Origin: a virus
Lineage: Duplodnaviria; Caudoviricetes
IMG/VR virus record: IMGVR_UViG_3300048554_000002
Coordinates: 1-63,628 of that record
DNA: 63,628 nt
Strand: one strand, 5' to 3'
Shown: piece after piece, positions 2,733 through 38,715 of the stretch
Numbering within the stretch: the first letter of the stretch is position 1
Layout of the letters: each line of letters opens with the position of its first letter
Notes under the pieces: generated by a model
What the model was told of the DNA's origin: nothing
Databases searched by the model: none
The model's input: only the letters and a program-made list of their open reading frames with translations
Program-made: the position numbers and the translations under genes

Positions 2733-3356
2733 TTAGTTATTACTTACAAACTGAACTGCTACCACTGAAGAAGGAAGACCGGGATGCGGTGTAGTCGCCG
2801 CCTGTGTTTGTAGGGTAAGATCAGTATCATCTACAGCCCAATACATTTCTATATACTGGTCTGCGAGCAAATCTATAGAAAAATTCCAAAATACTGCTGT
2901 ATGGTCGTTACCTTTAATTGAATTTTTCTGTCCGCCGTACGGCACATCTGTACCGTTTTTGTTTATCCACGTCCACAATATCGCAGTGGCCGAGTTATCT
3001 TTCTTAACCTGCATTGTCACTTGAAAGTTGTATATGCCATCAGCCGTTACTGTTATTCTAGTTTTGTTAGTTCCTTCTATAGATACACTATTCCATAGGT
3101 AGCTATTTTCAAACTCAACCGGATACCCTGTATTAGGTGCCGTTGCGGTCTGATTTGTAGTGCTGTAAAATAACCCGCGTGGTAGGTATAAGAATTTACC
3201 ACCATCATCAGAATCTAACAACGTATTTACCACGTTAAGAAACCTATTGAAGAACAAACGTAGCACGTTGCTATTCTGGTCCATGTATGGACGTTCATAA
3301 CCTTCAGGCGCTAAAGGAAGCGCGGGTGTAGCTACCTTATCTATTTCGTTAGGCAT
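2733..3356 (-). CDS. Virion/tail-associated protein with C-terminal beta-rich (C1q/BclA-like) domain
   Basis: 207 aa, coupled to the nozzle gene. Motifs ITVTADGIYNFQVTMQ and DQYIEMYW. Confidence 0.55.
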   Translation of the reverse strand: MPNEIDKVATPALPLAPEGYERPYMDQNSNVLRLFFNRFLNVVNTLLDSDDGGKFLYLPRGLFYSTTNQTATAPNTGYPVEFENSYLWNSVSIEGTNKTRITVTADGIYNFQVTMQVKKDNSATAILWTWINKNGTDVPYGGQKNSIKGNDHTAVFWNFSIDLLADQYIEMYWAVDDTDLTLQTQAATTPHPGLPSSVVAVQFVSNN

Positions 3357-5203
3357 TACCGCCTCCCGTCAGGGCGCATGTCAATCCTCGGTGCGCCGAG
3401 CTGCCATGTAACACCTTCTCCTGTGGACTCAACTTTCATAGCAAGCTGCCTACCACGCACGCGGGTATATATCTGCCCCGTATACGCCTCTACAGGAAGC
3501 ACAGCCGTACGGGTTATCGTACGTGAGTTACTACCACCTTCCGACAGAGGATCATTATAGCCAGACCCAGAATTGGCAAGTGGTAGTAACGTCATCGTCG
3601 CACTGGGGGAACCTGTTGTAGACCCATCAAACCGTATGTCAGGCAATATGCGCCATATAAACGCAAACTGATGGCCGTCTTCTAAGTCAAACTCTGCAGA
3701 AGCAACAAACGCGTGTATGGCTGCGGTGGTAGCTGTCTCGTTGTCATCTACACCTTCCTCGTGGTTTACGAGGTTATATGAGTATGTAGCTGCAAGCGGG
3801 TTACCCCGTAGACCGGAATCAAGCCATGCAGTGCGGGCCATTGTGCCATAGTACCAAATATCTTCTAGGTAGTTGTACACCACATAACGATCTATATTTG
3901 TCTGATCGGTAGAACAATAGAACCACCACACTTCGTGATACGACTCGTTAGTCCCTGCAAATACTTGGTCGTATTGTTGCTCGTTGAAGTCACCAAAGAC
4001 AAACTTACGCAGGTCACAGCGCAGGGGTTGAGTACGCCCGTCATACTTGTAGAACTTATCTTTACCCATCCAGTAGGCTACGCCATTAGCATAGGCTACA
4101 CAGTTTTGTGATGCTGTAGATATGTTTTCACCAACAAGCTGCGCAGACCACACTACAGGAGCGCCCACATATTGTAGCGAATAGAGAGCCGCGTCAGTCC
4201 AGACCAGCACCTCCTGTCTAGCTTGTTTAGAGGCTATAATCTCGGTGCCACGAGATAACGTAAGGAACCCTGCTTGTGATGTAACCGATGGTGTCCAATC
4301 TACTACACTACCTTGATCCGACCATCGCACCAACATAGGGTTGACTGTGGAACTACCAAACTCATTTGTACCGAACGCAAACACAAAACGATTGATGTCG
4401 GATACTTCTAAAATACGTTGGCTTGTGGGTACGTTGCTTGCGCCACCAAGGGTTGATAGCTCTACACCGCGGGATGTTAGTCCGCTAGTTGCATCCCAAT
4501 AATATATCGGCCCCCCACGAGGCCCAAAAACAAGGTCTTCGCCAAAATTAGACTGGCTCCAAAGCCTGATTGCATCTGTAGATGTGTCACCTACACCCCA
4601 CGTACCAGAACCCCAAGAAGAAGCGCCCCAACCTGTAAGGGGGATTGCAAACGCGGGACCAATGTTGATCTGATACGCCGCCGTAACCGTACCACCACCT
4701 GTTGCAGTAGAGGAAGCTGCAGAACCCGCATCTATTGTGTATTCGTTGGTAGTGGTAGTAAGAGTTATCTGATACTCACCGTTTAGAGTAAGCCCACCCA
4801 CGGCGCTAGCACCACTATAGGTAACAAAATCTCCGTCTGTATAGCCGCCATTCGCATCGGTAACCGTAACAATAGGAGAACCTGAAGTTGTTGCGAACGG
4901 GTTTGTGAGCGTCACTGTAGCACGTAATGGGGTGATGTCGTTATACGCTCCACCGTTCTCAATGTAGTATTTTAGGTTGGTGCCGACGGCAATAAGGTTC
5001 TGACTACCTAGTGTTACCCAATTCCATAATGACCTACACACACCTTGAAACGTGGTAGCAGATATACGTTGCCAACCACCTATCTTCTCAGGTGTACCCT
5101 GCCGAAAGCGTATCTTGTCGCACTCGTACCAGCCACCTTCGCTTGTGTAGCGTGTGTTTTCGCGGTTCACACCAGACTTTAAAAGTAGCTTCTTTAGGGG
5201 CAT
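3356..5203 (-). CDS. Tail nozzle / head-stabilisation protein (P22 gp10 / T7 gp12-like position)
   Basis: 615 aa, beta-propeller-like. N-terminal DKIRFRQGTPEKIGGW, VRWSDQ, and C-terminal RVRGRQ...WQLG...DGRR. Confidence 0.7.
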   Translation of the reverse strand: MPLKKLLLKSGVNRENTRYTSEGGWYECDKIRFRQGTPEKIGGWQRISATTFQGVCRSLWNWVTLGSQNLIAVGTNLKYYIENGGAYNDITPLRATVTLTNPFATTSGSPIVTVTDANGGYTDGDFVTYSGASAVGGLTLNGEYQITLTTTTNEYTIDAGSAASSTATGGGTVTAAYQINIGPAFAIPLTGWGASSWGSGTWGVGDTSTDAIRLWSQSNFGEDLVFGPRGGPIYYWDATSGLTSRGVELSTLGGASNVPTSQRILEVSDINRFVFAFGTNEFGSSTVNPMLVRWSDQGSVVDWTPSVTSQAGFLTLSRGTEIIASKQARQEVLVWTDAALYSLQYVGAPVVWSAQLVGENISTASQNCVAYANGVAYWMGKDKFYKYDGRTQPLRCDLRKFVFGDFNEQQYDQVFAGTNESYHEVWWFYCSTDQTNIDRYVVYNYLEDIWYYGTMARTAWLDSGLRGNPLAATYSYNLVNHEEGVDDNETATTAAIHAFVASAEFDLEDGHQFAFIWRILPDIRFDGSTTGSPSATMTLLPLANSGSGYNDPLSEGGSNSRTITRTAVLPVEAYTGQIYTRVRGRQLAMKVESTGEGVTWQLGAPRIDMRPDGRR

Positions 5204-12450: not shown

Positions 12451-13425
12451 TCATGCGGCTATGTCTTGCCAGTTTGGAGTTTGTGTTTCAGATACGGTCC
12501 CCCACGAAGGAGATTGCGTACTGGCGATAGGTGTCCAATTAGGTGTTTGGTTGTCATCGACCTCGCCCCATACGTTGGCGAAACCAATAATTCCCGTAGC
12601 TGCAAGCCCTGTAACAGATATATCTGCGTTAGCTGATACGACTACAGTACCAAGTTCTGCGTTCCCTTGCAATCCCGTAACTGAAACTACAATTCCAAGC
12701 GCGATAAATACGTCACCTATTTCACCGTCAGCTTCCACGCCTGTGGGTGACACGTTAGCTGTACCAGTCATGGTAACAGTGCCTATAGCACCATCGGCTT
12801 CTACGCCCGTAACGGGAATATTAGCCTCGGCGTCTACAGTAGCATCGCCAATCTCACCGCCAGCCTCTACGCCTGTTGGGAAGATGTTAGCCGCCGCAGT
12901 AGCAGTAACTGTCCCTAATACGCCGTCAGCTTCTATACCTGTAACAGCTACATTAGCTTCAGCATCTACTGTGGCTGTACCGATTCCACCATCGGCTTCT
13001 ACACCTGTAACAGCTACATTAGCTTCAGCGTCAATCGTGACTGTACCGATTTCACCATCTGCTTCTACACCCGTAGCAAAGACAGTCATATCTACAGCGA
13101 CAAATACTGCCCCTATAGCACCATCGGCTTCTACTCCGGTTACTGGTATCTCTGCAGCGGCGCTAACCGTTACTGTGCCTATTGAGCCTACTGCGCGAAC
13201 AGCTTGAACAAGTACATCCGCCTCGGCGTCAATACCTACAACATTTACGTGTCCATCTGCTTCAACACCTGTGACAGCAACAACTGCCTCTGCGTCAACA
13301 GTGACAGACCCAATAGCGCCTTCCGCGGCTACGCCATCAACGTAGACAATAGTTAGGTCGGTGCCCCAAGCCGTTTGGCCCCAAGCACCTGAACCCCAAC
13401 CTACGTATTCTACAGAAGACGGCAT
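12451..13425 (-). CDS. Virion structural protein with ~12 tandem 22-aa repeats
   Basis: Repeat consensus TGVEADGxIGTVTVDAEANVAV, with Trp-rich termini. Confidence 0.8.
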   Translation of the reverse strand: MPSSVEYVGWGSGAWGQTAWGTDLTIVYVDGVAAEGAIGSVTVDAEAVVAVTGVEADGHVNVVGIDAEADVLVQAVRAVGSIGTVTVSAAAEIPVTGVEADGAIGAVFVAVDMTVFATGVEADGEIGTVTIDAEANVAVTGVEADGGIGTATVDAEANVAVTGIEADGVLGTVTATAAANIFPTGVEAGGEIGDATVDAEANIPVTGVEADGAIGTVTMTGTANVSPTGVEADGEIGDVFIALGIVVSVTGLQGNAELGTVVVSANADISVTGLAATGIIGFANVWGEVDDNQTPNWTPIASTQSPSWGTVSETQTPNWQDIAA

Positions 13426-27246: not shown

Positions 27247-27558
27247 TTCGGGCATCTGCCCGAAAGATTGATACCAGTATCCTGAGTAGCGCCACGCATT
27301 ACGTGTTGCGTATTGATACGGCATGTGATACCTTGGCATTGGCTCATACCATAATGCCTGTACTGGCCCGCTTCGGCGGGTCTTTTTTTATTCGGGCATC
27401 TGCCCGAAAGATATGATACCAGTATCCTGAGTAGCTCTGCGCCTAACACGTTTTACCCTTGTACCACCAACACTGCGCATAAGATGTCACCAGATGGTAT
27501 TTCGGGCAACTGCCCGAAACTTGTGATACCAGTATCTTGAGTAGCGCCACGCGCCTAA
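27247..27558 (+). repeat. Three composite direct repeats (18-bp palindrome plus TGATACCAGTATCYTGAGTAGC)
   Basis: Units start at 27247, 27391 and 27501 and are separated by unrelated sequence. Confidence 0.9.
27365..27389 (+). terminator. Rho-independent terminator
   Basis: GGCCCGC-TTCG-GCGGGTC-T7. Confidence 0.8.
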
Positions 27559-27863
27559 GTCATTGAAAACAAAGGAATGTATCATTTGTACCACTCGTGT
27601 ACCACTGCAAATGGGGTCTAAGTCATTGATTTCAAAGCAATGTAGCGTTTGTACCACTTTTATAAGTATATATATCTTCTTTTTATTGAAGGGTAAGAGA
27701 AGGGGCTTCTGGCCTAAAAACCCCATCACAAATCTAGGTATATCGTTATGGTACAAACGTAACATTGCTACATTCGTTTAATATCAACCACTTACAGACC
27801 ACCATGGTGGTACATGATGGTACATACAACCTTACGCAACCTTACACCACCAAACCACAAAAC

Positions 27864-27980: not shown

Positions 27981-28190
27981 ATGTCAAAGACCGTAACTGC
28001 ACAAGGCTTCGCATGGTGTGGCAAGACACGCACCCATTCACTGCTCGTAACCTTTGAAGCGCGTAACCGCGTGGAGGCTGAAAACTGGATGAAGTACCAG
28101 AGCCGTTGGATGAAAGACTTGCGCATCGTACGCAACAACGACCAGTCTATTCTGGACGATCTGTTAGCATCTTATGGGGAGGCAGCGTAA
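27981..28190 (+). CDS. Hypothetical early protein
   Basis: 69 aa, RBS GGAGGA. Confidence 0.75.
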   Translation: MSKTVTAQGFAWCGKTRTHSLLVTFEARNRVEAENWMKYQSRWMKDLRIVRNNDQSILDDLLASYGEAA

Positions 28191-28405
28191 TGGCGCGTAA
28201 ACATTATACCCCCGAATGTGTTGGCTGCGGTGAAGTGTTCAGTGTTCGCCGTGCACGTCTTGGCTACAATGTGTGTCTGGAGTGTGGCGACTACCAAGCC
28301 ACAAAGCAACGCGCAAGTTGGTGCGTAGTACCGCTTCCCAAGCAAGGCTACACCCGCGTCACCAAAAAGGACGAGTTACTTAGCCTTAACCAGAAAACAC
28401 GTTAG
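28190..28405 (+). CDS. Small C4 Zn-finger protein (DksA/TraR-like spacing)
   Basis: Start at MARKHY (TAATG overlap), with CVGCG...RRARLGYNVCLECG. Confidence 0.7.
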   Translation: MARKHYTPECVGCGEVFSVRRARLGYNVCLECGDYQATKQRASWCVVPLPKQGYTRVTKKDELLSLNQKTR

Positions 28406-28433
28406 CGTGTGATCTACCATCAAACTGTATTAC

Positions 28434-28462
28434 TTGACACAACTCGATACTTGTGTTATATT
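28434..28462 (+). promoter_or_regulatory. Sigma70-type early promoter
   Basis: TTGACA-N17-TATATT with an extended TG. Spacer resembles that of the 27864 promoter. Confidence 0.82.
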
Positions 28463-28536
28463 AGGTGTACGAGCAATACCAAGAACACCTTAACAAACTT
28501 TCGGGCAACTGCCCGAAACTCAAATGGAGAAAGACA

Positions 28537-29523
28537 ATGAACATGGATTATGAGATTAACAACCAATTACTGCAAGACGCAGAAACGGCGGCGAAGGATT
28601 ATTGGGATGTAGATAAGGGCACGTTACGTGACTGCATCACCCAAGCACCGTCAATCAGTTCAGCGGCAATGATCGTGGACTTCAACGCATCCGTCTGGAC
28701 TGCGCGTAAGAAAGACCGCAAGGCATCGGATGATATCACTGACATGAACTATGCCGCCAAGGGTGTAGCCAATGTGTCTAAGAACCTACTGGGTGACTGC
28801 GAGGAATTACGCGCCGTCCAGAAGTTCGCAGGTAACGTGCGTAACATACACTACAGCATGACAATGCCATGGTCTGACAACGGCTCCCGACTGCTGACCA
28901 CGCAGCAATACTTCAAGTACAACGAAGTGATGACCGACCTGCAACAAGAGTTCGAGCGGTTGGTGGACGAGTTCTTGACTGTGTACGAGTGGAAGATCAT
29001 GGACGCGCAAGCCAAGCTAGGTGCTATGTTTCACCGTGACGAGTATCCCACGCGTGACAGTCTGCGTGACAAGTTCGGGTTCCGTGTGTCCTACGTGCCC
29101 TTGCCTGATAGTGGCGACTTTCGGATTGACATTGGCAACGAGGCTATGGTCACACTGCAAACCCAATATGAAACACACTACACGCAAGCCATCAAGACCG
29201 CGATGAATGACATATGGCACAAGCTGCATGACAATCTGACCACGCTTGCGCGACAACTCGACGTGAACGAGGAAGGCAAGGGCAACCGCCTGTATGACAG
29301 TGTGTTTGACCGAGCTATCGAGCTGACCGAGATGTTGGGTACGTGTAACGTAACAGGTGATAGTCAGATGGAAGCCATGAAGCGACAACTGGAACAGGCG
29401 TTTCATGTGTCGGGTGAACGCAGCTTGAACCTCGACCAGATCAAGAACAGCCCGTCATTGCGTGAAGAAACACGTAACAAAGTCACCGCAGCTATCGCTG
29501 CTCTACCAAGTCTGGACATGTAA
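28537..29523 (+). CDS. Helical hypothetical protein (DUF3150-like), first gene of the AAA/vWA module
   Basis: Start at MNMDYE after RBS GGAG, with motifs WTARKKD, TMPWSDNG and EYPT...DKF. Confidence 0.7.
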   Translation: MNMDYEINNQLLQDAETAAKDYWDVDKGTLRDCITQAPSISSAAMIVDFNASVWTARKKDRKASDDITDMNYAAKGVANVSKNLLGDCEELRAVQKFAGNVRNIHYSMTMPWSDNGSRLLTTQQYFKYNEVMTDLQQEFERLVDEFLTVYEWKIMDAQAKLGAMFHRDEYPTRDSLRDKFGFRVSYVPLPDSGDFRIDIGNEAMVTLQTQYETHYTQAIKTAMNDIWHKLHDNLTTLARQLDVNEEGKGNRLYDSVFDRAIELTEMLGTCNVTGDSQMEAMKRQLEQAFHVSGERSLNLDQIKNSPSLREETRNKVTAAIAALPSLDM

Positions 29524-33313: not shown

Positions 33314-34327
33314 ATGGCCTTATATTGGCAAAACAGACACCTAATGTCCTTTGATAAAGTGGCGGCAACATACGATGCTATCAAACCGCTGCGTGGTAAA
33401 CTCAGTGATGCTAACGTACGTCCTCTTGGTGACCGTGCGCGTAAGTGGGAGCGGATCAAAAAGATCAACAACAACTGCTACGTGCTGACAGACGGGTATC
33501 ACACTGGTGATGATGTGTTTAAGAGTTGGGGTTACAACCATAAAACAGGTAAACCAACCGAAGCAGAAATGATTAACCTTGCACCAATCGTGTGGCGTAG
33601 ACACAGAGATGGTACGACGACAATCAAGGTGCGTAACGGTACAGGTCAAGGTGCACACAACGGTCGGTATAGTTTCTTAGACAGACACCTGCCAAACGGT
33701 ATGCGGTTCATCGTTCGCAACGGCAAACACTTTATATCGTTGGGTCACGGCACCACTTACAAGGAATATTATCTTGCTAAGAGTAACACGTTAGCTGCGT
33801 GGGCATTGCCTGACGATGCACAGAGAAATCAGTGGACCAAAGACTTCACATCCCGTGATGATGGTGTGGCGCTGACGTTTCGTGTTGCCGATGACAAAAT
33901 AACTTTTGTGGACGGTGGTAAGGGGTTGCCTGTTGCGCCCAAGGTTCGGGTAGATAAGAAAGCCAAAGCCAAGATGAAGGATGCTATTGCTGAGTTCCGT
34001 GAGTGGGCGTTCACCATGTATCCTTTGTTACCTACCAACGACTACGAGTATAACAATCGTATCCGTGATGAAATACGCAACGTGATAGGTGGCTACGGGT
34101 GGCATATAACTGGTAGTTTTAGTGACGATCCAGAGTTTACGCGTACGGTAATAAATGACCCTGACCACGGGTTACGTCTGCACCTGATGTACGGGATCAT
34201 GGGTGAGACTGACTACCATCTGCGTCACACGTTTGACAGTGATGCGGATCATGTGAAGACTGTCAAATCGCAATTCAACCGTAAAATCAACAAAGTCTGT
34301 GGTTTTACAAAACAAGTGAGAGGATAA
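33314..34327 (+). CDS. Hypothetical protein
   Basis: Start at MALYWQ after RBS GGAG, about 337 aa. Confidence 0.75.
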   Translation: MALYWQNRHLMSFDKVAATYDAIKPLRGKLSDANVRPLGDRARKWERIKKINNNCYVLTDGYHTGDDVFKSWGYNHKTGKPTEAEMINLAPIVWRRHRDGTTTIKVRNGTGQGAHNGRYSFLDRHLPNGMRFIVRNGKHFISLGHGTTYKEYYLAKSNTLAAWALPDDAQRNQWTKDFTSRDDGVALTFRVADDKITFVDGGKGLPVAPKVRVDKKAKAKMKDAIAEFREWAFTMYPLLPTNDYEYNNRIRDEIRNVIGGYGWHITGSFSDDPEFTRTVINDPDHGLRLHLMYGIMGETDYHLRHTFDSDADHVKTVKSQFNRKINKVCGFTKQVRG

Positions 34328-36554: not shown

Positions 36555-37322
36555 ATGGCTATGGTTGCGAAGAAAACAGCAGGGGCACCCCTCGAAATAC
36601 ATACTGTCAAACAGGGGCGTATCAAACTGCGGATGGTTGGTCAGACACCGTTGTACTTTAATAGTATGGGCGCAAAAGCGTGGCGTGATCTGTTAGTGGG
36701 TGCAGGTAAAAAGACTGCGGCTGAAAAGAAAGAACTAAAACATAACCCCGAAAAAGAATTTAGGGAAAGTGTTTACACTAAGAAAACAGGAGACACGCTG
36801 TTGTGCTTCCCTGCGGCAGGGGTAAAGGGTGCTATGGCTACGGCTGCACTAGAAACGGCAGGGATCACTAAGACAAGTGTGCAGCGGCTAATATTTCTGC
36901 CCGAAAGCCATGTGCAGATTTGGGGCAAGCCGTATCTGAAGATGGACATTGTTCGGTCTGCGGATATGAATAAGACCCCCGATGTTCGTACCCGTGCGTA
37001 CCTACCCAACTGGTGCGCAGAGGTGGATATAAAGTTTGTTACACCAACGCTCAGTGCCATGGCTATCTCGTCATTGTTAATGAACGCAGGGATAATCGTG
37101 GGGCTTGGCGACTTCAGACAGGAGAAAGGTCGTGGCTCTTATGGCACGTTCTCTGTAACAGGTTCTGAGGATATGGGGGAACAACAGGCTATTTGGGATG
37201 ATATCACGCAAGAAGCGCGTGAGGTCCAAGAGATGGCATTAGAGTATCCCGAATGCGCTGATGAACAGACAGCGGAGCTTATGCAGTTCCTACAAGAAGA
37301 ACGGTTGCGTCGAGCAGCTTAA
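36555..37322 (+). CDS. Stand-alone Cas7/RAMP-superfamily-like RNA-binding protein
   Basis: RAMP-ordered motifs: first strand IKLRMVGQTPL, FPAAGVKGAMATAA (cf. IPGSSLKGALR), thumb region, W.AEVDIKF, and a C-terminal Gly-rich loop GLGDFRQEKGRGSYGTF. Confidence 0.75.
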   Translation: MAMVAKKTAGAPLEIHTVKQGRIKLRMVGQTPLYFNSMGAKAWRDLLVGAGKKTAAEKKELKHNPEKEFRESVYTKKTGDTLLCFPAAGVKGAMATAALETAGITKTSVQRLIFLPESHVQIWGKPYLKMDIVRSADMNKTPDVRTRAYLPNWCAEVDIKFVTPTLSAMAISSLLMNAGIIVGLGDFRQEKGRGSYGTFSVTGSEDMGEQQAIWDDITQEAREVQEMALEYPECADEQTAELMQFLQEERLRRAA

Positions 37323-37329
37323 ACGAAGA

Positions 37330-37349
37330 GGGGCGGTTAACGCCGCCCT
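37330..37349 (+). other. Hairpin at the 5' edge of the repeat array
   Basis: GGGGCGGT-TAAC-GCCGCCCT with no U-tract. Confidence 0.7.
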
Positions 37350-37362
37350 AATTCACGGATAA

Positions 37363-37700
37363 GGCGGTTATGGAGTGTTGGGGTTTGGTCCGTTGCGGTC
37401 AGTCGGGGCGGTCGAGGTGAGATGAGGTCTGATATGTTAAGGTCGGGCGGGGTTTGGTATGGCGGTCAAGGCGGTTGAGGCGCGGTGAGTTGGGTTAAGG
37501 CACGGACGGGCGTGGTACGGCAAGGCGGTCAAGGTGTGTTGTGTTCGGGTATGGCGAGCTACGGTGAGATATGGTCGGGTGAGGCGGTCGTGGTGCGTTC
37601 CGATGTGGCGCGTTCCGATGTGGCGCGGCCCGTTTGGGCGGTCTAGGTTGGGTGTGGCGCAGCGTGGTCCGATGTGGCGCGGTGTGGCACGACGAGACAG
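37363..37700 (+). ncRNA. Array of six putative guide-RNA units: GGCGGTY + (NN-GNY)n with strict 5-nt periodicity
   Basis: GGCGGTY at 37363, 37407, 37461, 37470, 37524, 37583 and 37637. Of 55 intervening triplets, 54 start with G, 53 end in Y and 32 are GGY. The NN positions vary freely. Confidence 0.85.
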
Positions 37701-37716
37701 CTAAACTAATGAGAAG

Positions 37717-37741
37717 GTGGTGGGCTGTAGTGGCCCACTAC
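37717..37741 (+). other. Hairpin at the 3' edge of the array
   Basis: GTGGTGGGC-N7-GCCCACTAC. Confidence 0.6.
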
Positions 37742-37770
37742 ATAAAAATAAATTTACTGGAGAACTAAAT

Positions 37771-38274
37771 ATGGCTAATTTTTCTAAGAAAACAAAGCAG
37801 CGTATCATTGACGATTACCTGCATAAAACAGGCGCGAACATGTTTGTGCCCTCAGAGTTTGTCGATTGGTTAGCAGGGCAACCAGAACATGAGGCTTACC
37901 CTGCGTTCTACGAGATGGATGATGCAGAAGCAGCGCGTCAATTCCGTATTCAAATGGCACGTCAGATGGCATCTGGTTTGCGTATCGTTGCGAAGACAGA
38001 AGAAGTCGAAAGCTCGGTGGTTTCTATCAAGGTGGCAGAATACCCTGCGTATATATCCCCTGTGTCTAAAAGGCGTGATGGTGGTGGGTATGAACCGTTT
38101 GATCCTAGTGATGAAACTGCGCAATCTGAGTTACGTAGGCAGGCAGGCACAAGTCTAGCTGCGTGGTTGGAGCGGTTCCGCGGCTGCGCTGAACATATAG
38201 GGGTGGATGTCACTCCATTGGAAGATATCGTGCGTGTATTACGTGACGAAAAAGACGAAGCGGTGGAGGCATAA
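37771..38274 (+). CDS. Hypothetical protein, probable partner of the RAMP-like protein and array
   Basis: Start at MANFSKK after RBS GGAG, with motif HEAYPAFYEMDDAEAARQFRIQMARQ. Confidence 0.75.
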   Translation: MANFSKKTKQRIIDDYLHKTGANMFVPSEFVDWLAGQPEHEAYPAFYEMDDAEAARQFRIQMARQMASGLRIVAKTEEVESSVVSIKVAEYPAYISPVSKRRDGGGYEPFDPSDETAQSELRRQAGTSLAAWLERFRGCAEHIGVDVTPLEDIVRVLRDEKDEAVEA

Positions 38275-38715
38275 ATGGCTAAGAAAGGATCGCCGTACGC
38301 GGATAAGATATGGGCGTACAAGATAAAACATCCTACAGCGAAAGCTAGGGAAATCGCGGACGCGACTAACACATCTTATGGGTACGTCTATAAACTTCTA
38401 AAGAAGATCGGCACACCAGACGAAGTGTTTGAAAAGGAAGCGCGTAGGGTCACGCGTGGGCAGGTGCTAGATACCGCCAAAGAATATGTGACCAAAGATC
38501 GTGCGGCTGACCATGGCAACATGGAAGATAACTTCAGCACCATAGGCAAGTATTGGTCGGTGCATCTAGGTGTGGATGTAAGTGCCACAGATGTAGCTGT
38601 GATGATGACGTTGTTGAAAGCTGCACGTATAAAGTCGAACCCGTCACATCCAGACAACTGGGTAGACGCATGTGGTTACATGGCATGTGGTGGCGAGATA
38701 GTGGGTAAGGTCTGA
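38275..38715 (+). CDS. HTH plus DUF6378-like protein
   Basis: N-terminal AREIADATNTSYGYV, then R..DHG...NF..I...W...DNWVD.CGY. Confidence 0.75.
   Translation: MAKKGSPYADKIWAYKIKHPTAKAREIADATNTSYGYVYKLLKKIGTPDEVFEKEARRVTRGQVLDTAKEYVTKDRAADHGNMEDNFSTIGKYWSVHLGVDVSATDVAVMMTLLKAARIKSNPSHPDNWVDACGYMACGGEIVGKV

What the first reader, a model, noticed from the sequence alone, without database searches (positions are those of the whole stretch)
36555..38274. Candidate non-CRISPR RNA-guided system: solo Cas7/RAMP-like gene, 5-nt-periodic guide array and partner gene
Seen: a RAMP-motif protein is followed 40 nt later by a hairpin-bounded non-coding array of six units with alternating conserved GNY and variable NN, then a 167-aa gene. 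No cas1, cas2, cas3, cas5, cas6, cas8, cas10 or CRISPR repeats occur in the genome. Established: Cas7-family RAMPs polymerise along guide RNA with a fixed nucleotide step. Inference: each subunit grips one GGY and displays NN, so the dinucleotides together specify a gapped target, probably in competing phages, silenced by binding rather than cutting. From memory and unverified, this matches recently reported VIPR-type (GGY/NN) phage systems.
Basis: partly seen in the sequence, partly recalled or inferred. Interest (0 to 1): 0.97.

Follow-up and report, generated by a model that had tools for sequence, protein, structure and literature searches.

The report
VIPR guide-RNA system in marine phage
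This marine phage carries a VIPR system, a recently described CRISPR-like weapon made of one small RNA-binding protein and an array of five-letter-repeat guide RNAs, and its guides match genes of rival phages and a satellite-like element.

Summary

Forty nt downstream lies a 336-nt array of six guides plus a one-repeat stub. It follows the grammar [GGTY][NN-G-K-Y]x8-11, and 57 of 60 in-phase pentamers are NN-G-N-Y.

In 68 related viral contigs, 67 carry the same delimiter (GGCGGTY) downstream. Delimiter spacing is quantised at 4+5k nt. The NN positions are near maximal entropy, while G and Y are 95% conserved. A 167-aa gene follows the array wherever enough sequence is present.

Under the published one-nucleotide-skip rule, four of the five guides searched have exact, wobble-aligned matches elsewhere:
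- a terminase small-subunit gene;
- a head-protein-like gene of roseophage relatives (64 contigs; reversed control 0);
- collagen-like Q(GAT)3 repeats;
- a small gene in an integrase-primase-helicase island.

No guide matches the phage's own genome.

VIPR has been in print since April 2026, so this is a new member of a known kind. Its particulars are tail-less abutting guides, a G-K-Y motif and an accessory gene unrelated to vap1. Expression, RNA processing and silencing are inferred, not shown.

The parts
36555..37322 (+). vipr: 255-aa single-domain RAMP (Vipr homologue). Thumb hairpin about residues 127-150 with R145/R147. G-loop G183-G197 (GLGDFRQEKGRGSYG). C-terminal helical extension 209-254 that SUSP1 Vipr (195 aa) lacks.
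37330..37349 (+). Leader hairpin (8-bp stem) whose 5' arm itself contains GGCGGTT. It is not followed by a T-run on the + strand.
   Evidence: z -2.5. One search reads it as terminator-like only on the - strand. Same position in L001-L011 and L027 (first delimiter at +12, spacing 31; L005 spacing 36).
37363..37698 (+). vrRNA array: six guides and one stub. Each is [GGTY] followed by NN-G-K-Y pentamers, and the last pentamer before each junction ends in GGC.
37366..37409 (+). Guide g1 (8 NN).
   Evidence: script name U1. Not searched in the collections, because its 16 specified bases are too few.
37410..37463 (+). Guide g2 (10 NN). Exact 1-nt-skip matches lie in a roughly 102-108-aa gene (peptide EDDLIKRGF/LI, sense strand) beside primase, DUF5906/VapE-like helicase and tyrosine integrase genes.
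   Evidence: 0 in viral contigs; 7 in metagenome contigs; 6 of 7 in one gene family, in frame.
37464..37472 (+). Stub: GGTC plus one pentamer (AAGGC), a collapsed unit.
   Evidence: In L001 and L003 the same place is read through as a 63-nt spacing.
37473..37526 (+). Guide g3 (10 NN). No exact target found.
   Evidence: 0 in viral contigs, 0 in metagenome contigs.
37527..37585 (+). Guide g4 (11 NN). Exact match in the terminase small-subunit gene of an HK97-like phage contig (peptide KVVRMETDIRE, sense strand, skip base at codon position 3).
   Evidence: It also gives 25 hits with at most 2 mismatches among 80 related loci.
37586..37639 (+). Guide g5 (10 NN). It holds a 15-nt unit in 2.5 tandem copies. 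Matches read Q-(G-A-T)3 collagen-like repeats on the antisense strand.
37640..37698 (+). Guide g6 (11 NN). It has no terminal GGCGGTY. Exact matches lie in a 123-135-aa head-protein-like gene (peptide SVTATGTATHY, antisense strand).
   Evidence: (64 loci). Control with the NN order reversed: 0.
37717..37741 (+). Trailer hairpin (10-bp stem) after the last guide. It is present in some relatives and absent in others, where the last delimiter runs straight into the ribosome-binding site of the next gene.
   Evidence: (z -4.2).
37771..38274 (+). Candidate vipr-accessory gene (167 aa). No Pfam family and no significant fold match. Helices, then a beta-hairpin, then a long helical hairpin.
   Evidence: Found next to vipr or its array in 60 of 68 loci. 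The 8 without it have at most 782 nt after vipr.. No similarity to SUSP1 vap1.

Best explanation
Window 36555-38274 is a VIPR (Viral Interference Programmable Repeat) locus of a marine phage, probably one that infects Rhodobacteraceae.

Proposed mechanism:
- vipr, the array and the 167-aa gene lie on one strand and are probably transcribed together (inferred).
- The array transcript yields six guides of 8-11 pentamers (inferred). How they are separated at the GGC-GGUY junctions is unknown.
- By homology with the solved SUSP1 complex, one Vipr protomer binds each pentamer. It clamps G-K-Y with the thumb arginine (R147) and the G-loop (D186, F187, R188), and it displays the two variable bases.
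- The displayed dinucleotides pair with double-stranded DNA while skipping every third base. A guide therefore reads codon positions 1 and 2 of a gene and ignores the wobble base.

Matches of the guides (shown computationally):
- the terminase small-subunit gene of an HK97-like phage family;
- a head-protein-like gene of a group whose nearest named relative is Roseobacter phage CRP-6;
- collagen-like fibre repeats;
- a small gene of an integrase-primase-helicase island.

The expected outcome is transcriptional silencing of competitors in a co-infected or lysogenic cell, helped by the accessory protein. This rests on analogy with SUSP1 and is not shown here.
For: Protein:
- AF2 model pLDDT 95.3.
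- The profile of 111 family members hits 'SUSP1 Vipr protein' (36pp_D) at E 2.4e-8 in a search of all PDB sequences. hhalign gives probability 97.2%.
- The aligned stretch covers SUSP1 R138, D177, W178 and R179. The cryo-EM preprint names these as the contacts to the GGY guanines and pyrimidine. Here they are R147, D186, F187 and R188.

Array:
- 57 of 60 pentamers are in phase.
- 67 of 68 related viral loci carry GGCGGTY downstream, and 63 of 68 carry five or more copies.
- Spacings fall at 39, 44, 49, 54, 59 and 64 nt.
- Over 241 unique in-register units, positions 1-2 have 1.93 and 1.99 bits of entropy. Position 3 is G in 95%, position 4 is G in 55% and T in 36%, and position 5 is a pyrimidine in 95%.
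- Homologues at only 26-27% identity, in Gordonia phages Ecliptus and UmaThurman, also have NN-GGY arrays directly downstream.
- Loci with a 100% identical Vipr carry different sets and orders of guides.

Targets:
- g4 has 1 exact hit with 22 specified bases, g6 has 64 and g5 has at least 120 in viral contigs. g2 has 7 in metagenome contigs.
- The skip base falls on codon position 3 in the g4 hit, in 147 of 151 g5 matches, in 56 of 64 g6 loci by the automatic frame call (in all 5 of the other loci re-read by hand the same gene was found), and in 6 of 7 g2 hits.
- The 64 g6 targets are 34 different sequences, with all four bases at 9 of the 10 skip positions.
- The reversed-order control for g6 gave 0 hits.
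- On 80 loci of the g4 target family, 215 clade guides gave 3 exact hits with a 1-nt skip. Skips of 0, 2 and 3 gave 0, and five shuffled, reversed or swapped controls gave 0.
- No guide matches the phage's own genome. The best is 5 of 20 bases wrong.
- g2 and g4 have the sense of the mRNA, and g5 and g6 the antisense. This fits DNA targeting, not mRNA targeting.

Context: no Cas1, Cas2 or Pfam RAMPs match and no CRISPR-like repeats.
Against: - Nothing here shows that the array is transcribed, processed or bound by the protein. Contigs from four RNA libraries cover the 3' end of vipr, the array start and g6, but such libraries can hold DNA, and contigs show no RNA ends.
- Sequence similarity to SUSP1 Vipr is limited to about 50 C-terminal residues. 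The N-terminal contact residues named in the preprint (H17, E71, M72) could not be aligned.
- Only 37 of 60 triplets are the canonical GGY.
- There is no conserved structured 3' tail of the kind that caps SUSP1 vrRNAs.
- g3 has no exact target in either collection, and g1 was not searched.
- g5 is a low-complexity guide built by a 15-nt duplication. Its many matches to collagen-like repeats may be a by-product.
- g4 has only one exact hit.
- The accessory protein has no recognisable fold or family and no likeness to vap1. Its role, and whether the outcome is silencing or cutting, remain open.
Confidence: 0.9

Rival explanations
1. It is a VIPR system that destroys its targets instead of silencing them: the 167-aa protein is a nuclease or recruits one, as proposed for VIPR types III-V.
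For: The preprint says that types III-V carry predicted nucleases or helicases as vap genes. The 167-aa protein has no assigned function, so an enzymatic role is not excluded.
Against: No nuclease family or fold was found. The weak, non-significant fold rows were DNA-binding winged-helix proteins such as PadR and RepE, at E 0.7-1.4. According to the preprint, nuclease types are enriched in cellular defence islands, whereas this locus is in a phage.
Confidence: 0.12
2. The RAMP and the array act on RNA, by mRNA binding or as an anti-CRISPR decoy that soaks up host type I or III machinery, and not on DNA.
For: The nearest solved folds are RNA-targeting Csm3 and Cas7-11 subunits. RNA anti-CRISPRs exist; I saw one only in a search listing.
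Against: Two of the four guides with matches (g2, g4) have the same sense as the target mRNA and could not pair with it. The repeats are pentamers, not CRISPR repeats. The protein is homologous to SUSP1 Vipr, for which binding of double-stranded DNA was shown.
Confidence: 0.04
3. The G-rich 5-nt periodic tract is a structural or replication element, such as G-quadruplex-prone DNA or iterons. Its closeness to a RAMP-like gene is coincidence, and the gapped matches are chance.
For: GG every five bases could form G-quadruplexes; this is my own reasoning and was not tested. g5 is a plain tandem duplication.
Against: The gene-array pairing holds from 100% down to 26% protein identity. The NN positions are maximally variable while G and Y are fixed. 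Exact 22-base gapped matches fall in frame in single gene families, and the reversed control gave none.
Confidence: 0.02

Closest known systems
SUSP1 VIPR system (type II; Escherichia phage phiSUSP1, KT454805: vipr 28474-29061, vap1 28031-28471, four vrRNAs)
   Same: Both have a solo small RAMP with a homologous thumb and G-loop and guides of about 10 pentamers with fixed G..Y and variable NN. Both follow the 1-nt-skip, wobble-aligned target rule and aim at other mobile elements, one of them a satellite-like island. Both have a small accessory gene and are phage-borne.
   Different: - Each SUSP1 vrRNA stands alone, with its own leader and a roughly 40-nt structured tail. Here the guides abut, separated only by GGC-GGTY.
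- The motif here is G-[G/T]-Y.
- Vipr here is 255 aa with a C-terminal helical extension, against 195 aa.
- The aromatic residue of the G-loop is F, not W.
- The gene order is vipr-array-accessory gene.
- The accessory protein is unrelated in sequence to vap1.
'Staggered vrRNA arrays' of the VIPR preprint (legend of fig. S18, seen)
   Same: [quoted passage not shown] Here each junction is a 4-nt unit, a repeat one base short. It shifts the register by one and directly joins two guides. The Gordonia phage arrays show the same with T-GGC or A-GGC.
   Different: I could see only the legend, not the figure or the data files, so the identity is likely but unverified. Which of the seven types this clade belongs to could not be settled.
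Non-canonical VIPR arrays found with a genomic language model (bioRxiv 10.64898/2026.10.21.760802; passages read)
   Same: They are period-5 arrays next to Vipr-like folds whose fixed triplet departs from GGY or is degenerate at one position.
   Different: The patterns named there (GAC, CAC, WGT, TGH) are not G-K-Y. No target decoding is given in the passages I read.
Csm3/Cas7 backbone subunits of class 1 CRISPR-Cas
   Same: Same RRM-thumb-G-loop fold. Both polymerise along a guide with a fixed step; for this protein that is inferred.
   Different: There is no CRISPR array and no cas1 or cas2, and no other RAMP was found by the Pfam RAMPs model or the Vipr-family profile. The Pfam RAMPs model does not match the protein. 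The step is 5 nt with 2 bases read, not 6 nt with 5 read (the CRISPR figure comes from the preprint's text).

Membership tests
VIPR system | Homology to an experimentally characterised Vipr. | tested here: met
   Family profile against PDB sequences hits SUSP1 Vipr at E 2.4e-8. hhalign 97.2%, 52 columns. The similarity is restricted to the C-terminal third.
VIPR system | Residues that hold the GGY triplet (SUSP1 R138, D177, W178, R179; also H17, E71, M72). | tested here: inconclusive
   R147, D186 and R188 are conserved, and W is replaced by F187. H17, E71 and M72 lie in parts that did not align.
VIPR system | Adjacent tandem pentanucleotide repeats with a conserved GGY (or related) triplet and hypervariable NN, about 9-16 per vrRNA. 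| tested here: met
   57 of 60 pentamers are NN-G-N-Y. Family-wide entropy is 1.93 and 1.99 bits at NN, against 95% G and 95% Y. Unit sizes in the family are 6-15, and here 8-11.
VIPR system | Minimal locus outside any CRISPR-Cas context, with a vipr-accessory gene. | tested here: met
   No Cas1, Cas2 or Pfam RAMPs match and no CRISPR-like repeats. The 167-aa gene is conserved in 60 of 68 loci, and the other 8 are cut short.
VIPR system | Targets obey the 1-nt-skip rule, are mostly wobble-aligned, lie on either strand of other mobile elements, and are absent from the element's own genome. | tested here: met
VIPR system | vrRNAs are expressed, co-purify with Vipr and silence transcription. | not testable with these tools
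   Only contigs from RNA libraries covering parts of the locus, which do not prove transcription.
VIPR type II (SUSP1 / P. fulva clade) | Each vrRNA ends in an invariable structured 3' tail (a pseudoknot in SUSP1), and the accessory gene is vap1. | tested here: not met
   Guides abut at GGC-GGTY with no tail. The SUSP1 intergenic regions were read for comparison. The 167-aa protein against vap1 gives hhalign probability 0.2%.
CRISPR-Cas class 1 effector | A CRISPR repeat-spacer array, an adaptation module (cas1/cas2) and further Cas subunits. | tested here: not met

The most novel reading that the evidence does not exclude
In this clade, guide boundaries may be set by a repeat that is one base short (G-GTY after an invariant GGC) and not by a structured RNA tail. 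A single transcript would then be partitioned into filaments of 8-14 protomers by register alone. The identical junctions would double as recombination points through which related phages swap whole guide cassettes, which would be a Cas1-free way of updating a guide repertoire. Within that repertoire, g5 would be a generalist guide that silences collagen-like fibre genes of many unrelated phages.
Probability: 0.3. Interest if true: 0.65.

Novelty: new member of a known kind. Interest (0 to 1): 0.4.

Why it matters
VIPR systems were described only in 2026, and experiments so far cover E. coli and Pseudomonas elements. This locus shows the same machinery in an abundant family of uncultured marine phages. 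The protein has 1,626 relatives with E up to 0.001 in the 90%-identity cluster collection and 1,989 representatives of 50%-identity clusters.

Four of its guides could be given candidate targets directly from sequence: packaging, head and fibre genes of other phages, and a small gene of a satellite-like island. That gives a concrete map of who fights whom among phages that probably infect Rhodobacteraceae.

The compact tail-less array may interest people who engineer VIPR, because it packs six guides into 336 nt.

Tried and rejected
Searches that found nothing
- Pfam found nothing for either protein. PHROGs gave only families of unknown function.
- Rfam found no family over the array, only a sub-threshold S15-leader match at the trailer hairpin.
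- Megablast of the locus against named phages found nothing.
- The promoter and terminator scan found no more than the shuffles did, so I name no promoter.
- A plain period-5 Fourier measure was weak, because each junction shifts the phase. I replaced it with delimiter parsing.

The 167-aa protein
- The complex prediction of Vipr with the 167-aa protein returned no verdict (score 0.00). It counts neither for nor against binding.

Targets and host
- g2 and g3 had no exact match in viral contigs. g3 had none in metagenome contigs.
- Clade guides gave no hit of 90% or better on the 68 Vipr loci, and only short 7-8-NN guides with 2 mismatches on the window genome. I therefore do not claim that relatives target each other.
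- CRP-6 itself is a poor g6 target, with 5 of 22 bases wrong.
- The large terminase of the g4 target family has no close relative in species-representative genomes; the best is 56%. Only 2 of 401 sampled genomes of one class hold even a distant Vipr match. The host assignment therefore rests on the CRP-6 and Octadecabacter virus relatives of the g6 target and on a Sulfitobacter homologue of the 167-aa protein.

RNA libraries
- The contigs do not cover 37432-37585. That gap proves nothing.

Not seen
This covers the type assignments, figures S16-S18 and the data files. They may already list this clade, its array type and its accessory gene.
Full report
What is there

The window is a complete 63,628-bp virus record. 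On the + strand lie:
- an ORF of 255 aa (36555-37322);
- a 448-nt non-coding stretch;
- an ORF of 167 aa (37771-38274).

Forty nt after the first stop codon the motif GGCGGTY appears. It recurs at 37363, 37407, 37461, 37470, 37524, 37583 and 37637. One more copy sits inside a hairpin at 37332.

Between junctions the sequence parses in one register as [GGTY] followed by NN-G-N-Y pentamers. The last pentamer before each junction ends in GGC. This gives six guides of 8, 10, 10, 11, 10 and 11 pentamers, plus a one-pentamer stub. In this report they are g1 to g6; my scripts called them U1, U2, U4, U5, U6 and U7.

Of the 60 pentamers, 57 are NN-G-N-Y, 48 are NN-G-[GT]-Y and 37 are NN-GGY. Elsewhere in the genome the longest run of such pentamers is 5. 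Hairpins at 37330-37349 and 37717-37741 bound the array.

The protein

Pfam is silent on it, but the family is large: 1,626 relatives in one search and 1,989 50%-cluster representatives in another.
- An AlphaFold model built on 111 relatives has pLDDT 95.3.
- The family profile, searched against every PDB sequence, finds 'SUSP1 Vipr protein' (36pp_D) at E 2.4e-8. hhalign against the SUSP1 gene read from the phage record gives 97.2%.
- The aligned block runs from the thumb arginine through the glycine-rich loop. SUSP1 R138, D177, W178 and R179 are named in the cryo-EM preprint as the contacts to the GGY triplet, and R138A and D177A abolish silencing. They correspond to R147, D186, F187 and R188 here.
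- Residues 209-254 form a helical extension that the 195-aa SUSP1 protein lacks.

The array in relatives

In 68 viral contigs that encode a relative (48-100% identity), 67 carry GGCGGTY within 700 nt downstream and 63 carry five or more copies.
- Junction spacing is quantised at 4+5k nt. The counts among unique units are 9, 41, 35, 83, 37 and 23 for 39, 44, 49, 54, 59 and 64 nt.
- Over 241 unique in-register units, the two N positions carry 1.93 and 1.99 bits. Position 3 is G in 95%, position 4 is G in 55% and T in 36%, and position 5 is a pyrimidine in 95%.
- The junction behaves as a repeat one base short (G-GTY), which shifts the register by one. The flanking NN lean towards AA before the junction and GA after it.
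- Gordonia phages Ecliptus and UmaThurman, whose homologues are only 26-27% identical, have NN-GGY arrays directly downstream, with the same kind of 4-nt break.
- Two divergent contigs (L061, L068) have the order vipr, 167-aa gene, array.
- Contigs whose Vipr is 100% identical to the window's carry different numbers, identities and orders of guides. g5 and g6 stay fixed at the 3' end. This looks like cassette exchange at the junctions.

The accessory gene

A homologue of the 167-aa protein lies next to vipr or its array in 60 of 68 loci. The eight without it end within 782 nt of vipr. The other neighbours (an HTH gene, a DUF6378 gene, DNA polymerase) come and go.

In several relatives the last junction runs straight into its ribosome-binding site, which suggests one operon. 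Its model (pLDDT 86.8) has no significant fold match, and it shows no likeness to SUSP1 vap1.

What is known

VIPR is described in three 2026 preprints from one laboratory and is mentioned in a fourth.
- First preprint: I read the Results, Discussion and four Methods sections, plus passages including the supplementary figure legends.
- Cryo-EM preprint: I read one Results section.
- Third and fourth preprints: I read passages only.

They define VIPR as follows:
- a solo ancestral RAMP and vrRNAs of 9-16 YNNGG repeats;
- a one-nucleotide-skip code that reads double-stranded DNA;
- targets in competing phages and satellites, mostly wobble-aligned;
- accessory vap genes;
- seven types, including 'staggered' arrays in which one vrRNA ends where the next begins.

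Targets

I applied the published rule, replacing each fixed triplet with one N. No guide matches the phage's own genome; the best has 5 of 20 bases wrong.

| Guide | Exact matches | What is matched |
|---|---|---|
| g1 | not searched (16 specified bases) | - |
| g2 | 0 in viral contigs, 7 in metagenome contigs | 6 of 7 in one 102-108-aa gene, in frame, sense strand |
| g3 | 0 in viral contigs, 0 in metagenome contigs | - |
| g4 | 1 in viral contigs | terminase small-subunit gene |
| g6 | 64 loci | head-protein-like gene |

- g4. The hit lies in the Terminase_4 small-subunit gene of an HK97-like head module. It reads K-V-V-R-M-E-T-D-I-R-E with every skipped base at codon position 3. That contig shares no detectable similarity with the window.
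  - Among 80 relatives of the contig (large terminase 75-100% identical), 215 clade guides gave 3 exact hits and 9 hits of 90% or better with a 1-nt skip.
  - Skips of 0, 2 and 3 gave 0 exact hits. Five reversed, shuffled or swapped controls gave 0 exact hits and 0-3 hits of 90% or better.
  - One 8-NN guide from another contig matched exactly 80 times in this set. It reads positions that stay fixed while the family diverges.
- g6. By the automatic frame call, 56 of 64 loci read the same gene and frame, with peptide S-V-T-A-T-G-T-A-T-H-Y on the antisense strand. All 5 of the others that I re-read by hand hold the same gene.
  - The targets are 34 different sequences, with all four bases at 9 of 10 skip positions.
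  - The gene is head-protein-like (phrog_240, E 1.2e-7). Its nearest named relatives are in Roseobacter phage CRP-6 (61%), where it lies between the portal gene and a gene annotated 'putative tail fiber protein', and in an Octadecabacter virus.
  - The reversed-order control found nothing.
- g5. 147 of 151 matches read Q-(G-A-T)3 in long ORFs. These are collagen-like repeats. Because g5 is itself a 15-nt duplication, I treat it as a possible generalist guide, not an established one.
- g2. The target gene lies after primase and DUF5906/VapE-like helicase genes, and in one contig after a tyrosine integrase as well. From my own knowledge, that gene set is typical of phage satellites and small integrative elements. 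This parallels the satellite targets of SUSP1.

Two guides have the sense of the target mRNA and two the antisense. This fits DNA recognition.

Expression

Contigs from four marine RNA libraries cover the 3' end of vipr and the array start, and then continue into other NN-GGY units. One 151-nt contig covers g6 through the start of the 167-aa gene without a difference. This is compatible with transcription, and it shows array variation in nature. It does not prove an RNA, its ends or its strand.

Verdict

Relative to the characterised SUSP1 type it differs in five ways:
- tail-less guides joined by a 4-nt register break, probably the preprint's 'staggered' form, though I could not see that figure;
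- a G-K-Y triplet in place of GGY;
- a longer Vipr, with F in place of W in the G-loop;
- the gene order vipr, array, accessory gene;
- an unrelated accessory protein.

These differences lie within the diversity that the preprints already sketch, so I class it as a new member of a known kind. The mechanism steps shown here are fold, homology, array grammar, family-wide co-occurrence and computed targets. The steps inferred by analogy are transcription, processing, filament assembly and silencing.

Noticed in passing
L357 3127-3437 (Gordonia phage UmaThurman, NC_031249 about 33352-33662): The annotated gene gp40 ('hypothetical protein', locus 3137-3460) lies over a run of NN-GGY pentamers directly after the Vipr homologue gp39. 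It is probably an array read as an ORF.
   Followed up: partly
L362 1463-6043: A compact island of tyrosine integrase, primase (PriCT_2), DUF5906/VapE-like helicase and the 102-aa gene that g2 matches. In L359 the same module sits beside a 1,457-aa cadherin/He_PIG protein gene. It may be a phage satellite of a marine bacterium.
   Followed up: partly
window 37590-37627: Guide g5 holds a 15-nt unit (three pentamers) in 2.5 tandem copies. Relatives L008 and L009 carry a shorter 8-NN version, so guides can grow by slippage.
   Followed up: partly
L001-L011, L027 arrays: The same guide cassettes recur at different positions and in different combinations among close relatives. One g4 variant with a single NN change matched more members of the terminase target family than g4 did (40 hits against 25).
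   Followed up: partly
P0237: A 58%-identical homologue of the 167-aa protein is recorded in a 234-kb contig of Sulfitobacter sp. R18_1. It may mark a prophage-borne VIPR in a culturable roseobacter.
   Followed up: no
window 38275-38715: The next gene encodes a DUF6378 domain (E 1.1e-31). Pfam also gave weak, sub-threshold helix-turn-helix matches in its N-terminal part. PHROGs labels relatives 'phosphofructokinase', which looks like an inherited misnomer.
   Followed up: no
window 12887-13084: Three tandem 66-nt repeats (65-100% identity).
   Followed up: no
window 27391-27658: Two pairs of 41-52-nt direct repeats (85% identity), 63 and 110 nt apart.
   Followed up: no
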